Below are positions 364 through 7,212 of a stretch of 8,160 nucleotides of DNA, in pieces. How positions within the stretch are numbered: position 1 is the first letter of the stretch; every line of letters begins with the position of its first letter. The stretch lies in the IMG/VR virus record IMGVR_UViG_2671180778_000006. One strand, 5' to 3'. The stretch comes from a virus. Its lineage: Duplodnaviria; Heunggongvirae; Uroviricota; Caudoviricetes. Both the position numbers and the translations under genes were made by a program. The notes beneath the pieces were generated by a model that did not search any database, was not told where the DNA came from, and saw nothing but the letters and a program-made list of their open reading frames with translations.

Positions 364-390
364 AATCCTATGGGGTAAACCCATAGGATT
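364..390. terminator. Perfect 11-bp stem / 5-nt loop hairpin between convergent genes (possible bidirectional terminator)
   Basis: aatcctatggg (364-374), loop gtaaa, cccataggatt (380-390). It lies between the alpA stop (344) and the stop of the minus-strand 449-aa gene (396). The flanking U-tracts are weak, so terminator function is uncertain. Confidence 0.4.
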
Positions 391-395
391 TGAAA

Positions 396-1745
396 TCACT
401 TAAATTCAAATACGTGCGTAGTTGATGAGATTATATAATTAGGTGGTAAGTATTGAACTATTTCTCCATCTTCTTCAAAAATATGAATAACTCTTGGGAA
501 TAATTCAGGGCGTATAGGATTTAATGCCTTCGGATTATGAAACATGTATATTGCTGTACACCATGGTTCTTGATATGAAGGTGCATTGACAAGAGCAGTA
601 AAAGGCATTGGGGTACAGCCTTCATCAGTTTTAATACCTCTAACGATGGATTTGACATTTTTTTGTTCAATCCCTGCCACTACTCCCATCCTATCAAATT
701 TTGGGATGGTGGCATGTGTCGCAAGTAATATGGCTGAGACATTCTCATTTTTATTAGAGCCGAAAAAATTAGATTGTATACTTCGATTTTCAAATAAATG
801 TTGTTCAATTTTACTTCCAGAATCCATATCTACACCATACAGATAGCTTTGTAGTGCTGGCATTGATATACTCATCGAAAATCTGCGTGAGTAATCGTGT
901 AAAGCAATAATGAAAGGCTTTCCTTTTGTATGATCTAGTTCCCAATAGCATAATTTTAAGGGTTCAGGTTTATGCCTAACTTTCTTTAATAGAGTGCGGG
1001 CAAATTTGAATGGCATTTGTTCTTTTACATATCTCTGAAGATCTTCTACTGCCTCATGATCAAGTATCAATTTCTCGGTAGGTTCCTCTTGTTCTGCAAC
1101 TGTGGCAGCTTCTACAGCAATATCAATGCCATTTTTTGAGATAATATAATCAGGTTGAGCATAATCTCTGCATATTACGAAATCCATTTCGTAGAAAACT
1201 GCGTTTAGATAAAGTTCGAATAAGCGAGAGTTAAATGAAGCACTCTGGAAATCTCTGATGAATATTCCATCAGGATCTTTACACCAATAAGCTAACTCTT
1301 GCATAACAATAAATGCAGGATAGTGTTTGGGTTCCTCAAGTAGCATTCTTAGATAAACGTTTTTTTTATGTTCTGGAACTTTGGCTAGGAATATTGAAAA
1401 TGCCGACTCTGATTCGTCACCCTGTATAAAACAACCGTTCTTGTGTAGTGATAATAGCTCTGGTATGGCTTTTTCCATATCAGTAATTAAATCATCTTTA
1501 GATTCACGGGATACAATTACTTTAATCGCTCTAAATTTTTTATCTAAATCCCTACCTAGAAATATAGCGTTGTAATCATTATCTATTTTACAAAAAACAA
1601 TTGTTGCTAAGATCGTGACATCATCCTTTATAAATTTGAACCAACAGATTTCCTCCGAAAAGGTTTTTACGTATGGTGTACGACCATAGAAAAATACATC
1701 AAATTGTTCTTTACTGATTTCTAGCATTTTGTGACTTGTTGTCAT
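396..1745 (-). CDS. Hypothetical 449-aa protein, family not recognised; candidate effector of a cargo (possibly anti-phage) operon
   Basis: Uninterrupted 1350-nt ORF with ATG start and an upstream AAGGA Shine-Dalgarno at 7-nt spacing. It starts 23 nt downstream of the RHH gene on the same strand. Composition is markedly AT-rich compared with the roughly balanced flanking genes. By eye there is no Walker A, HEPN Rx4-6H, HNH or transmembrane signature. Confidence 0.85.
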   Translation of the reverse strand: MTTSHKMLEISKEQFDVFFYGRTPYVKTFSEEICWFKFIKDDVTILATIVFCKIDNDYNAIFLGRDLDKKFRAIKVIVSRESKDDLITDMEKAIPELLSLHKNGCFIQGDESESAFSIFLAKVPEHKKNVYLRMLLEEPKHYPAFIVMQELAYWCKDPDGIFIRDFQSASFNSRLFELYLNAVFYEMDFVICRDYAQPDYIISKNGIDIAVEAATVAEQEEPTEKLILDHEAVEDLQRYVKEQMPFKFARTLLKKVRHKPEPLKLCYWELDHTKGKPFIIALHDYSRRFSMSISMPALQSYLYGVDMDSGSKIEQHLFENRSIQSNFFGSNKNENVSAILLATHATIPKFDRMGVVAGIEQKNVKSIVRGIKTDEGCTPMPFTALVNAPSYQEPWCTAIYMFHNPKALNPIRPELFPRVIHIFEEDGEIVQYLPPNYIISSTTHVFEFK

Positions 1746-1768
1746 AGAAGAATCCTTTATGCAAATTA

Positions 1769-1963
1769 TCAGCCTTTAGGTGTTATTCCTTGTTTTATTA
1801 GTTCGGCACGAGCCAGTTCTTTTAGCCAGTTACCTAAGCTCATCCCTTCTTTGGCAGCGACATTAACCATTTGTTCTTTTAATTCTGGGTTAATACGGAC
1901 TTGGAATGCTGGTGCTTTACCTGCACCTTTCGGTTGTTTATCACGTTGAATGATAGTTGACAT
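1769..1963 (-). CDS. Ribbon-helix-helix (Arc/MetJ/CopG-like) DNA-binding protein, probable operon regulator
   Basis: 64 aa. FQVRINPELKEQMVNVAAKEGMSLGNWLKELARAEL matches the beta-strand plus two-helix RHH pattern (compare Arc and Mnt repressors). ATG at 1961-1963 on the minus strand with AGGU about 9 nt upstream in the mRNA. First gene of the leftward operon. Confidence 0.7.
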   Translation of the reverse strand: MSTIIQRDKQPKGAGKAPAFQVRINPELKEQMVNVAAKEGMSLGNWLKELARAELIKQGITPKG

Positions 1964-2005
1964 GTGTGTACCTATTGCTTAGTATGATTCTTGATAGGTA
2001 CACAC
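1964..2005 (-). promoter_or_regulatory. Perfect 12-bp inverted repeat (GTGTGTACCTAT, 18-nt spacer, ATAGGTACACAC): candidate operator or RBS-sequestering leader hairpin
   Basis: Left arm 1964-1975 and right arm 1994-2005 are exact reverse complements. The repeat abuts the RHH start codon and contains its Shine-Dalgarno in the transcribed leader. Confidence 0.5.
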
Positions 2006-2023
2006 CTTATCATGTTTTATTGC

Positions 2024-2052
2024 TATATAACAACGCCCTGCAGTGCTCGCAA
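2024..2052 (-). promoter_or_regulatory. Putative sigma70 promoter for the leftward RHH/449-aa operon
   Basis: Read on the minus strand: -35 TTGCGA (plus 2047-2052), 17-nt spacer, -10 TATATA (plus 2024-2029). Each hexamer is only a 4/6 match, so this is weak by-eye evidence. Confidence 0.3.
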
Positions 2053-2298
2053 CACATACAGGGCGTCTAACCACCAACGATAGCAACAGTATCGAGGTAG
2101 CTATGAGAAATCATACCACACACCCGCAAGGGCGGGATTCGCACAACCTGAATAAATACATCTGGCGTTTTATCGCCCTGAGCACCGCACAACCACGCGT
2201 AATACACATCGAGGCCGCCAGCGAACAGGAAGCCCGCCAGCAATCCCCAACTGGCTACGTGATGATATTCGCCGCCCGTATTCGTCAGGAGGTGTGCC

Positions 2299-4962: not shown

Positions 4963-4975
4963 AAAATGGCAATGG

Positions 4976-5207
4976 TTATCTACCTTGTCTACCTGACTGA
5001 AAGAAAATACTTTTATTTCAATGTATTAATGCAGGTAGATAACTATTTTTCACTGTCTACCTGTTATCTACCTTATCTACCCATTTTTGTAGACAGGTAA
5101 GGAGACGGGTAGAGATGAGGTAGACAGCTATTTGGGGCTGTCTACCTCCCTGAAACCCGCGCCATTACTGGCCTGATAACTAATCAGGTAGACAAGGTAG
5201 ACAAGGT
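4976..5207. repeat. Iteron-type replication origin (about 11 copies of TCTACC / GGTAGA in both orientations, plus an AT-rich stretch)
   Basis: TCTACC at 4979, 4988, 5056, 5067, 5076 and 5141. Reverse-orientation GGTAGA at 5034, 5108, 5119, 5187 and 5196, the last two as a tandem GGTAGACAA pair. AT-rich stretch at 5001-5030. Position immediately 3' of the primase gene. Confidence 0.75.
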
Positions 5208-6171: not shown

Positions 6172-7212
6172 ATGGTTGATTTATATTCGCCTACCCAGCT
6201 TGTACAGGTGGTTAATGCTGTAGATGTACAAAAACAACTAAATGCGTTGTTTACCAGTTTGTTTTTTACTCGCTCGGTAATGTTTGGATCGCGCGATATT
6301 ATTCTTGATACAATCGACGATCCAAATATCCCAATTGCAGCGTTTTGTTCTCCTATGGTGGGTAGTAAAGTTTCACGTGACGAAGGGTACGAATCAAAAA
6401 CAATTCGTCCAGGCTATATGAAGCCGAAAAGCAGCATTGATCCAAATAAGTTAGCTGTGCGCCCTGCTGGTGTATCACCTGAGCAATACAATGCTTTTGG
6501 GGCGCGTAATATTAAAGTTAAACAGGCGATTGTAAATCAAGCTAAAGCTATTCGTGCACGTATTGAATGGCTTGCCGTTCAGGCAATCACAACGGGGAAA
6601 AATATCATTGAGGGCGATGGTATTGAACGTTATGAGCTGGACTGGAATATTAAACCACAAAATATCATCACTCAGTCTGGCGGTACTGAGTGGTCAGGTA
6701 AGGATAAAGAAACTTTTGATCCAAATGATGATATTGAGAGCTACGCAGAATTTAGTGAGGGCGTCACTAATATCATCATTATGGGCGGTAATGTATGGAA
6801 GAAATACCGTTCATTCAGAGCGATAAAAGAGGCTCTGGATACCCGTCGTGGTTCTAATTCCGAACTGGAAACGGCCCTTAAAGACCTTGGTGATTCGGTG
6901 AGTTTTAAAGGATATATGGGCGATGTTGCGATTGTTGTTTACAGCGGGCGTTATACCGACGAGGACGGAACTGAAAAACATTTCCTTGATCCTGATTTGA
7001 TGGTGCTTGGCAATACGGCTCTTCAGGGGATTGTCGCCTATGGCGGTATTCAGGATCCGGAGCTAATCCGAATGGGGCTGACTAAAGCCGAACTTGCACC
7101 GAAAAACTATATTGTGCCTGGTGATCCGGCTATTGAATATGTGCAGACACATTCAGCACCACAGCCAATACCGGCCCGCATCAATCGTTTTGTTACCGTT
7201 CGCATTGGCTAA
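6172..7212 (+). CDS. Major capsid protein, phage lambda gpE-like
   Basis: Near-full-length similarity to lambda gpE as recalled from memory, including ITQSGGTEWS, DTRRGSNSELETA, GDVAIVVYSG and MVLGNT blocks and a matching N-terminus (MVDLYSPTQL against lambda MSMYTTAQLL). Start placed at ATG 6172 with GAGG at 6-nt spacing; the ORF track's upstream extension to 5959 is not supported. Confidence 0.9.
   Translation: MVDLYSPTQLVQVVNAVDVQKQLNALFTSLFFTRSVMFGSRDIILDTIDDPNIPIAAFCSPMVGSKVSRDEGYESKTIRPGYMKPKSSIDPNKLAVRPAGVSPEQYNAFGARNIKVKQAIVNQAKAIRARIEWLAVQAITTGKNIIEGDGIERYELDWNIKPQNIITQSGGTEWSGKDKETFDPNDDIESYAEFSEGVTNIIIMGGNVWKKYRSFRAIKEALDTRRGSNSELETALKDLGDSVSFKGYMGDVAIVVYSGRYTDEDGTEKHFLDPDLMVLGNTALQGIVAYGGIQDPELIRMGLTKAELAPKNYIVPGDPAIEYVQTHSAPQPIPARINRFVTVRIG

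What the first reader, a model, noticed from the sequence alone, without database searches (positions are those of the whole stretch)
1964..2005. Perfect 12-bp inverted repeat abutting the RHH start codon and containing its Shine-Dalgarno
GTGTGTACCTAT and ATAGGTACACAC are exact reverse complements separated by 18 nt and begin 1 nt upstream of the RHH ATG. RHH proteins are known to bind inverted or direct repeats as dimers of dimers and to autoregulate, so this is a natural operator candidate. In the mRNA it would also form a hairpin that includes the AGGU ribosome-binding site, so translational control is an alternative. Either way it points to tight control of the 449-aa gene, as expected for a toxic effector.
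Basis: partly seen in the sequence, partly recalled or inferred. Interest (0 to 1): 0.5.

Follow-up and report, generated by a model that had tools for sequence, protein, structure and literature searches.

The report
Arc-like repressor operator in phage satellite
The perfect inverted repeat is real and is most likely a pair of DNA binding sites for a small Arc-like repressor, placed on two back-to-back promoters of a phage satellite island, so it probably controls both an anti-phage gene and the island's replication genes.

Summary
The 12-bp inverted repeat (1964-1975 / 1994-2005, 18-nt spacer) is exact and abuts the ATG of a 64-aa ribbon-helix-helix (RHH) gene on the minus strand. It is not chance: the repeat keeps this position in more than 70 related loci from Enterobacterales and Aeromonas. 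Its sequence changes on both arms together.

The variable centre of each arm tracks two RHH beta-strand residues. These align with the base-contacting Gln9 and Asn11 of P22 Arc. I found seven residue/site combinations.

Each arm is best read as a dimer site, AGGT-N4-ACCT. The sites overlap two conserved, divergent promoter-like elements. One would drive RHH plus the PD-T7-1 defence gene. The other would drive the Icd-like/primase replication operon of a helper-embedded PICI satellite.

The mRNA-hairpin alternative is disfavoured. The predicted start of the RHH transcript lies inside the upstream arm. In one RHH type, complementarity between the arms is not maintained.

The RHH and repeat belong to the island backbone. 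The gene after the RHH varies or is absent, so this is not toxin-specific control.

RHH binding and repression are inferred, not demonstrated. Verdict: a new member of a known kind, of moderate interest.

The parts
1964..1975 (.). Inverted-repeat arm next to the RHH start codon (GTGTGTACCTAT on the + strand).
   Evidence: It is conserved in position in more than 70 loci.
1994..2005 (.). Inverted-repeat arm distal to the RHH gene (ATAGGTACACAC on the + strand).
   Evidence: Compensatory variation with the other arm is shown.
1962..1973 (-). Proposed RHH dimer site O_P, AGGT-ACAC-ACAT on the minus strand. It covers the SD and the first 2 nt of the ATG, and lies between the -35 and -10 of the Icd-sense promoter.
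   Evidence: The reframing comes (sites AGGTG-NN-CACCT in a related RHH type).
1996..2007 (-). Proposed RHH dimer site O_D, AGGT-GTGT-ACCT on the minus strand. It overlaps the -10 and predicted +1 of the RHH promoter and the predicted +1 region of the Icd-sense promoter.
1957..1985 (+). Promoter-like element for the Icd-like/primase operon: TTGACA (1957-1962), 17 nt, TAGTAT (1980-1985). The -35 is the reverse complement of RHH codons 1-3.
   Evidence: one of only two 10/12 matches in the window. TTGACA plus TAnnnT at 17-18 nt is kept in 44 of 46 distinct loci.
2004..2033 (-). Promoter-like element for the RHH/cargo operon: -35 TTGTTA (2033-2028), 18 nt, extended -10 TG (2012-2011) and TAAGGT (2009-2004). 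The predicted start is about 1995-1999, inside the distal arm.
   Evidence: TGnTAnnGT is at a fixed register in 45 of 46 distinct loci, plus L212 by eye. TTGnnn lies 17-18 nt upstream in 43 of 46.
1769..1963 (-). 64-aa Arc-like ribbon-helix-helix protein, annotated elsewhere as 'HicB family antitoxin' or 'YlcI/YnfO'.
   Evidence: The profile hits P22 Arc (1b28, E 2.8e-5). Foldseek top hits are Arc, probability 0.97-0.99. The AF2 model has helices 26-38 and 43-57. The Pfam HicB RHH region scores 20.3 bits.
396..1745 (-). 449-aa PD-T7-1 anti-phage defence gene, 23 nt after the RHH stop. This is cargo in the variable slot.
   Evidence: PADLOC PD-T7-1, E 1.3e-153. The system was validated by Vassallo et al. 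2022 (PMC9519451).
2103..2306 (+). Icd-like gene, the first gene of the tightly packed + strand operon that runs into DUF4222 and the D5_N primase (to 4962).
   Evidence: NCBIfam phage_ICD_like, E 1e-19. ORF packing is, and Pfam matches.
2030..2105 (-). Conserved two-hairpin region antisense to the Icd leader. It ends in a GC-rich stem (arms 2033-2040 / 2059-2066) plus a T-run. It is a candidate cis-antisense RNA and terminator directly upstream of the RHH promoter.
   Evidence: 10 of 21 pairs carry compensatory changes, and many G.U pairs are valid only on this strand. No Rfam family matches.

Best explanation
The repeat is a two-site DNA operator for the 64-aa Arc-like RHH protein encoded immediately next to it.

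Each arm is the core of one dimer site of the form AGGT-N4-ACCT: O_P at 1962-1973 and O_D at 1996-2007. The antiparallel beta-ribbon of an RHH dimer would read the central N4.

The two sites sit on a compact pair of divergent, overlapping promoters.
- O_D overlaps the -10 and start of the promoter that reads leftward into the RHH gene and the downstream cargo (here PD-T7-1).
- O_P lies between the -35 and -10 of the promoter that reads rightward into the Icd-like/DUF4222/primase operon.
- O_D also covers that rightward promoter's start.

Bound RHH would therefore limit its own operon (negative autoregulation, setting the level of the defence gene). It would also hold the satellite's replication operon off.

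Shown here by computation: the repeat; its conserved register relative to promoter-like elements and the start codon; compensatory change; and co-variation with the beta-strand.

Inferred: actual binding, stoichiometry, repression of either promoter, and how repression is lifted.
For: (1) RHH identity. The profile matches P22 Arc at E 2.8e-5. Window residues A19/Q21/R23 fall on Arc Q9/N11/R13. That these are Arc's base-contact residues is from my own knowledge of the Arc-operator crystal structure (PDB 1par). Foldseek top hits are Arc.

(2) Seven beta-strand/site combinations:
- A/Q with GTGT-type centres
- T/Q with ATGT or ACGT
- P/H with GTAC
- A/N with ACAC
- M/N with ATAG
- I/S with ATGG
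- Q/R(K) with G-NN-C

(3) The link is not simple hitch-hiking. In mosaics the beta-strand is the only protein segment that tracks the site. L191's C-terminal part is 95% identical to a type-A protein. L011's N-terminal tail is 100% identical to that of a type-A protein (L157).

(4) In the Q/R type each site is itself a palindrome, AGGTG-NN-CACCT. The central NN combines freely between the two sites (5 perfect, 6 wobble, 5 mismatch among 16 distinct loci). This is expected for two dimer sites and not for an RNA stem.

(5) Promoter-like elements keep a fixed register to the arms on both strands in 44-45 of 46 distinct loci.

(6) The arm occurs only here in the island.

(7) The defence-validated PD-T7-1 clone took 302 nt on one side of the gene 'with its native promoter'. 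If that is the upstream side, it spans the RHH gene, the repeat and the predicted promoter.
Against: - No binding or expression data exist.
- Promoters and transcript starts are consensus predictions only.
- The dyad-to-dyad distance varies from 32 to 37 bp (spacer 16-21 nt). A rigid Arc-like tetramer across both sites is therefore unlikely, and cooperativity is unknown.
- The beta-strand codons lie only about 55-75 nt from the sites, so some co-inheritance by linkage remains possible.
- Perfect inverted repeats can also be homogenised by template-switch mutation.
- Covariation between the arms is equally predicted by an RNA stem. Among one-sided changes, G.U (4 cells) and A.C (5 cells) are about equal, which argues only weakly.
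Confidence: 0.7

Rival explanations
1. Translational control by an mRNA hairpin. The two arms pair in the RHH mRNA leader and hide the AGGU ribosome-binding site.
For: If both arms are transcribed, the stem folds at -16.9 kcal/mol, z -5.0. The arms co-vary. Some one-sided changes are G.U in the RHH sense (L009, L090 and L001 types).
Against: - The conserved extended -10 ends 2 nt into the upstream arm, so the predicted transcript starts inside it. The remaining 5-bp stem folds at -1.5 kcal/mol, no better than shuffles.
- A terminator-like hairpin lies just upstream and should limit read-through.
- In the Q/R type, 5 of 16 distinct loci have A.C mismatches at the stem centre, in random proportion.
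- A.C cells are as common as G.U cells.
- It does not explain the co-variation with the beta-strand residues.
Confidence: 0.12
2. A type II toxin-antitoxin pair. The RHH is the antitoxin of PD-T7-1 and the repeat is the TA autoregulatory operator.
For: The gene order is RHH then effector, 23 nt apart. Databases name the RHH 'HicB family antitoxin'. The Pfam HicB match is 20.3 bits, below the cut-off of 21.
Against: - The same RHH and repeat precede unrelated genes (AbiC-like, SWIM, DUF5677, membrane proteins), or nothing at all in about 10 distinct loci.
- The protein is 64 aa. The RHH fold ends near residue 57, so there is no room for a toxin-binding extension or a HicB N-terminal domain.
- PADLOC matches PD-T7-1 with a single protein model, and Vassallo et al. 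list one protein for the system.
Confidence: 0.08
3. The repeat serves another factor (AlpA, integrase, a host or helper-phage protein). Or it is kept perfect by quasi-palindrome template switching and has no regulatory role of its own.
For: The island encodes two other HTH/AlpA-like proteins. Template switching can co-convert the arms of an inverted repeat (general knowledge).
Against: - Site type follows the RHH beta-strand, not the rest of the locus.
- The position is fixed relative to two promoter-like elements and the start codon across genera.
- The attP arm-type motif described for these islands is different (TGTATTGC; PMC10111431).
Confidence: 0.07

Closest known systems
P22 Arc repressor and its operator in the immI region (arc-ant / mnt divergent promoters)
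   Same: Closest by sequence and fold. It is a small RHH with a basic N-terminal arm. The base-reading residues fall at the aligned positions. From my own knowledge: the Arc operator lies between the -35 and -10 of Pant and also affects the overlapping divergent Pmnt, so one small repressor acts on two back-to-back promoters.
   Different: Arc binds two adjacent subsites 11 bp apart as a tetramer on a 21-bp operator (own knowledge). Here the two sites are 32-37 bp apart with a variable spacer that holds a -10 element. The element is a satellite island, not a phage, and the downstream gene is variable defence cargo.
SaPI/PICI master repressor Stl (Rpr) of Gram-positive PICIs
   Same: The position and logic match. 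A repressor gene is transcribed divergently from the replication module, with accessory genes on the repressor side (PMC6092414).
   Different: There is no homology (Stl is a helix-turn-helix protein; own knowledge). [quoted passage not shown] Derepression by a helper protein is not testable here.
RHH antitoxins (HicB C-terminal domain, ParD, CopA/CopG-like) with palindromic autoregulatory operators
   Same: They share the RHH fold, a promoter-overlapping palindrome and probable negative autoregulation.
   Different: There is no conserved partner toxin and no toxin-binding extension.
Helper-embedded PICI '11capE' family (Eco567.11capE)
   Same: The island layout and insertion site match: int, AlpA, a dynamic zone, Icd/DUF4222/primase/SSB, and capsid plus decoration genes. 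It is inserted in the major capsid gene of a lambdoid prophage.
   Different: A term search of that paper found no mention of ribbon(-helix-helix), HicB, operator or inverted repeat. It says the non-hypothetical genes are unidirectional.

Membership tests
Arc/MetJ-type ribbon-helix-helix DNA-binding proteins | Strand-helix-helix fold of about 45 residues | tested here: met
   The profile matches Arc (1b28, E 2.8e-5). The AF2 model has pLDDT 80, an extended N-terminus and helices 26-38 and 43-57. Foldseek top hits are Arc with TM 0.84 on the target, followed by AmrZ, CopA and NikA.
Arc/MetJ-type ribbon-helix-helix DNA-binding proteins | Beta-strand side chains read bases in the major groove | tested here: inconclusive
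   This was tested only indirectly. Residues aligned to Arc Q9 and N11 co-vary with the site centre in seven combinations. No structure or binding assay is available.
Arc/MetJ-type ribbon-helix-helix DNA-binding proteins | Obligate dimer; operator made of repeated subsites | tested here: inconclusive
   Two repeated sites are present. Dimerisation and occupancy could not be tested with these tools.
P22 Arc operator architecture | Two subsites on one face, about 11 bp centre to centre, bound by a cooperative tetramer | tested here: not met
   Dyads are 34 bp apart in the window and 32-37 bp apart across loci.
Type II toxin-antitoxin module (HicB or RHH antitoxin) | Conserved cognate toxin gene adjacent to the antitoxin | tested here: not met
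   The downstream gene varies or is absent.
Type II toxin-antitoxin module (HicB or RHH antitoxin) | Antitoxin carries a toxin-neutralising domain besides the DNA-binding domain | tested here: not met
   The protein is 64 aa and the RHH ends near residue 57. The Pfam HicB match covers only the RHH part and is below the cut-off.
SD-sequestering leader hairpin | Both arms present in the mRNA | tested here: inconclusive
   The predicted extended -10 puts the start inside the distal arm. No 5'-end data are available.
SD-sequestering leader hairpin | Base pairing maintained by selection along the whole stem | tested here: not met
   In the Q/R type the central pairs are random (5:6:5). A.C cells are as frequent as G.U cells.
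PD-T7-1 anti-phage defence system | Full-length match to the PD-T7-1 protein model | tested here: met
   PADLOC E 1.3e-153, residues 7-447 against model positions 1-448 of 452.
Gram-negative PICI / helper-embedded PICI | int-AlpA, primase replication module, ori downstream of pri, insertion in a helper late gene | tested here: met
   Gene content is shown. Iterons lie at 4971-5207. The same island in SCU-316, strain 10, N1420 and C 237-04 splits a prophage major capsid gene. The family is described in PMC10111431.

The most novel reading that the evidence does not exclude
The RHH and its two-site operator could be the maintenance (immunity-type) repressor switch that has been missing for many Gram-negative PICI-type satellites.
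- It would hold the Icd-like/primase replication operon off.
- It would come in at least seven mutually distinct specificities, that is, heteroimmune variants that allow several islands per cell.
- Its own promoter would double as the expression platform for a swappable anti-phage cargo slot, much as lambda cI carries rexAB.
- A conserved cis-antisense RNA against the Icd leader may form a second layer of the same switch.
Probability: 0.35. Interest if true: 0.65.

Novelty: new member of a known kind. Interest (0 to 1): 0.5.

Why it matters
For Gram-negative PICIs only the activator AlpA is known. [quoted passage not shown]

A small Arc-like repressor sitting on the promoter of the replication operon would give a concrete, testable candidate for that repressor. 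It would also explain how defence cargo such as PD-T7-1 is expressed in the quiescent island.

The natural series of matched beta-strand/site variants is a ready-made data set for studying the DNA-recognition code of RHH proteins.

On the practical side, database names for this protein ('HicB family antitoxin', 'YlcI/YnfO') are probably misleading. The published PD-T7-1 clone may have included this regulator.

Tried and rejected
- Rfam search of the whole window (E up to 1) and of 1940-2160 (E up to 10). Nothing came near a gathering score. The best hit was 16.5 bits to the R1162 antisense RNA against a cut-off of 55.
- The genome-contig scan with the RHH alignment gave only 3 loci. The pattern scans were far more productive.
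- P0043 is not on record in the contig index.
I re-ran it with database hits.
- I first read the two arms as lying on one DNA face, 30-31 bp apart. I dropped this after the Q/R type showed that each arm is an internally symmetric site, which puts the dyads 32-37 bp apart with no fixed phase.
- Terminator reading of the repeat: rejected. The stem is AT-rich, the loop is 18 nt, there is no T-run, and the scanner does not call it.
- The 'doubled motif' of HE-PICI attP sites (TGTATTGC) is a different sequence at a different place.
- Literature searches for ribbon-helix-helix with PICI, and for YlcI/YnfO, found no functional study of this protein.

Full report
**1. The observation**

The window reads GTGTGTACCTAT at 1964-1975 and ATAGGTACACAC at 1994-2005. 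These are exact reverse complements separated by 18 nt.

The neighbouring 64-aa ORF is on the minus strand (1769-1963). The arm at 1964-1975 touches its ATG, and AGGT (1973-1970 on the minus strand) lies 6 nt before the ATG.

A perfect 12-bp inverted repeat with a 3-40 nt spacer appears in 1.4% of dinucleotide shuffles of the window (28 of 2000). The arm sequence has no other copy in the window, even with 2 mismatches, nor in 19.8 kb of the same island plus flanking prophage in E. coli SCU-316.

**2. Context**

- The 449-aa gene after the RHH (396-1745, minus strand) is the PD-T7-1 anti-phage system (PADLOC E 1.3e-153; validated in PMC9519451).
- On the other side, on the plus strand, lies a tightly packed operon: an Icd-like gene (2103-2306), small ORFs, DUF4222 and a D5_N/DUF5906 primase. 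SSB, a major capsid gene, a head-decoration gene and an HTH gene follow. An AlpA gene sits at the left end.
- In complete E. coli genomes this is an integrase-AlpA island inserted inside the major capsid gene of a lambdoid prophage. That makes it a helper-embedded PICI of the '11capE' type (PMC10111431).
- A term search of that paper found no mention of ribbon(-helix-helix), HicB, operator or inverted repeat.

**3. The RHH and repeat are backbone, and the downstream gene is cargo**

In related E. coli islands the RHH gene, the repeat and the Icd leader are conserved at 77-92% identity. The gene after the RHH differs: a 241-aa unknown, an AbiC-like protein, a 147-aa membrane protein, a SWIM protein or a 176-aa unknown.

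Across all loci collected, PD-T7-1 follows three different RHH lineages. About ten distinct loci have no gene after the RHH before the convergent AlpA or the next gene. This argues against a dedicated toxin-antitoxin pair.

**4. The protein is Arc-like**

- A profile of 25 homologues matches P22 Arc in the PDB (1b28, E 2.8e-5). The alignment places window K12-G13...P18-A19-F20-Q21-V22-R23 on Arc K2-G3...P8-Q9-F10-N11-L12-R13.
- Gln9, Asn11 and Arg13 are the base-contacting residues of Arc. This is my own knowledge of the Arc-operator structure, PDB 1par.
- The AF2 model (pLDDT 80) has an extended N-terminus and helices 26-38 and 43-57.
- Its best structural matches are Arc entries (probability 0.97-0.99), followed by other RHH proteins.
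- The Pfam HicB match covers only the RHH part and is just under the cut-off.

**5. Comparative test of the repeat**

I scanned metagenome and viral contigs with a pattern that fixed only the inner six bases of each arm and ATGTC. The outer six bases of both arms were left free. Sixty-three hits are followed by a true RHH homologue.

More distant homologues came from a protein search and contig look-ups. A second pattern scan covered a type with a TTG start.

In every case one arm abuts the start codon, and the other begins with the last two bases of a TGnTAnnGT motif.

On a register-fixed alignment (the middle of the spacer removed so that the arms stay in register) of 23 distinct sequences:
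- 96.7% of cells pair.
- 5 of 12 pairs show changes on both sides.
- 22 cells carry a double change, against 7.0 +/- 2.1 in shuffles.
- 0 of 500 shuffles reach the observed covariation.

**6. Site type tracks the beta-strand**

The table uses the residues aligned to Arc Q9 and N11.

| Residues at Arc Q9 / N11 positions | Centre of the site |
|---|---|
| A / Q | GTGT (also GCGT, ATGT, ACGT) |
| T / Q | ATGT or ACGT |
| P / H | GTAC |
| A / N | ACAC |
| M / N | ATAG |
| I / S | ATGG |
| Q / R or K | G-NN-C |

The association survives recombination.
- L191 (P/H) has a C-terminal part 95% identical to an A/Q protein.
- L011 (P/H) has an N-terminal tail identical to that of an A/Q protein (L157).
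- The nearest C-terminal neighbours of L171 (P/H) are all A/Q or T/Q, none P/H.

Only the beta-strand follows the DNA.

**7. What each arm is**

The Q/R type is common in E. coli, for example in the strain 10 island. It has sites AGGTG-NN-CACCT at the same two positions. The central NN is GT, AC or GC in any combination between the two sites.

Among 16 distinct loci, 5 are perfectly complementary, 6 have only wobble pairs and 5 have A.C mismatches. That is the 1:1:1 ratio expected with no constraint.

So each arm is an internally symmetric site of the form AGGT-N4-ACCT, as expected for a two-fold symmetric dimer. Complementarity between the arms at the centre is not itself selected in that type.

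In the window the sites are O_P = 1962-1973 and O_D = 1996-2007. The dyad-to-dyad distance is 16 plus the spacer, which gives 34 bp here and 32-37 bp overall (spacers 16-21, mode 19). There is no fixed helical phase and no Arc-style tetramer geometry.

**8. Promoters**

- **Plus strand.** TTGACA (1957-1962), 17 nt, TAGTAT (1980-1985) is one of only two 10/12 matches in the whole window.
  - TTGACA is the reverse complement of RHH codons 1-3. This may explain why M-S-T is nearly invariant.
  - A TAnnnT hexamer lies 17-18 nt downstream in 44 of 46 distinct loci, although the spacer is otherwise unconserved.
- **Minus strand.** TGnTAnnGT (TG 2012-2011, hexamer 2009-2004) is present at a fixed register in 45 of 46 distinct loci, plus L212 by eye.
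  - TTGnnn lies 17-18 nt upstream in 43 of 46.

Consequences for the sites:
- O_P lies in the spacer of the Icd-sense promoter.
- O_D overlaps the -10 and predicted start of the RHH promoter.
- O_D also covers the predicted start of the Icd-sense promoter.

These are consensus predictions, not mapped transcript ends.

The published PD-T7-1 clone 'with its native promoter' extended 302 nt on one side of the gene and 45 nt on the other. If the long side is upstream, it ends near window position 2047. It then contains the RHH gene, the repeat and the predicted promoter.

**9. The RNA alternative**

If both arms were transcribed, the stem would be stable (-16.9 kcal/mol, z -5.0). From the predicted start only a 5-bp stem remains (-1.5 kcal/mol; 131 of 200 shuffles fold as well).

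One-sided changes give G.U in 4 cells and A.C in 5, so there is no strand-specific tolerance. The Q/R type shows free mismatching at the stem centre.

The hairpin is not excluded, for example in read-through transcripts. It is not needed to explain the data, and it does not explain the protein co-variation.

**10. Proposed mechanism**

RHH dimers occupy O_D and O_P. Occupancy of O_D competes with RNA polymerase at the RHH promoter. That gives negative autoregulation and a set level of the co-transcribed defence cargo.

O_P, together with O_D, blocks the divergent promoter of the Icd-like/primase operon and keeps the satellite's replication genes quiet.

All of these steps are inferred. How the block is lifted is unknown. 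Possibilities include a helper-phage protein, AlpA-dependent transcription, or read-through from helper late genes as proposed for these islands.

The existence of at least seven matched protein/site types resembles heteroimmunity in temperate phages. It fits with several such islands per genome (median 2 places per genome, up to 22).

**11. Comparison and novelty**

RHH repressors with palindromic operators on their own promoters are a well-known kind. Arc at the divergent Pant/Pmnt promoters of P22 is the nearest analogue in sequence and logic (own knowledge).

The differences are the wide, variable spacing of the two sites, the satellite context and the swappable cargo.

For Gram-negative PICIs the literature states that a global repressor has not been identified and that AlpA is an activator (PMC6092414). 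I found no paper in the library that treats this RHH as a regulator. A recent survey lists it only as 'HicB' or 'YlcI/YnfO' accessory genes in P4-like, PICI and cf-PICI elements.

I rate this a new member of a known kind, of moderate interest. The interest would be higher if it proves to be the repressor of the replication module.

Noticed in passing
window 2030-2105, minus strand: The strand antisense to the Icd leader folds into two conserved hairpins. Ten of 21 pairs carry compensatory changes, and many G.U pairs are valid only on this strand. The second hairpin (arms 2033-2040 / 2059-2066) is followed by a T-run that doubles as the -35 of the RHH promoter. A TGnTATGAT-like -10 lies at about 2113-2121 on the same strand. 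This is a candidate cis-antisense small RNA covering the Icd SD and start codon. No Rfam family matches it.
   Followed up: partly
window 4971-5207: At least 12 copies of an AGGTAGA(C/T)A iteron lie in both orientations between the primase and the next gene. They include the perfect 12-bp inverted repeat at 5117-5128 / 5137-5148. This is most likely the island's replication origin, which is known to lie downstream of pri in these PICIs.
   Followed up: partly
L001, L002, L003, L213 (E. coli strain 10, N1420, C 237-04, SCU-316): The island splits the major capsid gene of a lambdoid prophage and carries its own capsid and head-decoration genes. This is the already published helper-embedded PICI configuration (PMC10111431).
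   Followed up: yes
window 1957-1963: The -35 hexamer TTGACA of the plus-strand promoter is the reverse complement of RHH codons 1-3 (ATG TCA AC). This dual use may explain why the N-terminus M-S-T is nearly invariant across the family. One RHH type uses TTG as its start codon and still keeps TTGACA.
   Followed up: partly
window 364-390: An 11-bp perfect hairpin (AATCCTATGGG / CCCATAGGATT, 5-nt loop) lies between the convergent AlpA and PD-T7-1 genes. It is probably a transcription stop. The T-run is weak on the plus strand and absent on the minus strand.
   Followed up: no
window 6724-6735 / 6769-6780: A third perfect 12-bp inverted repeat (AATGATGATATT, 33-nt spacer) lies inside the major capsid gene. 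It is unexplained.
   Followed up: no
window 396-2047 (by calculation from PMC9519451, Table S2): The clone used to validate PD-T7-1 (ECOR46) took 302 nt on one side of the gene and 45 nt on the other. If the long side is upstream, it includes the whole RHH gene, the repeat and the predicted promoter. In that case the 'single-gene' system was tested together with this regulator.
   Followed up: partly
RHH homologues in public records: The protein is annotated as 'toxin-antitoxin system HicB family antitoxin', 'YlcI/YnfO family protein' or 'predicted HicB family RNase H-like nuclease'. The evidence here points to a stand-alone Arc-like regulator instead.
   Followed up: yes
L213 9052-10134 (E. 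coli SCU-316): In the genome with a 99.8% identical module, the PD-T7-1 gene is annotated as only about 360 aa. This suggests a different start call or a disruption in that strain.
   Followed up: no
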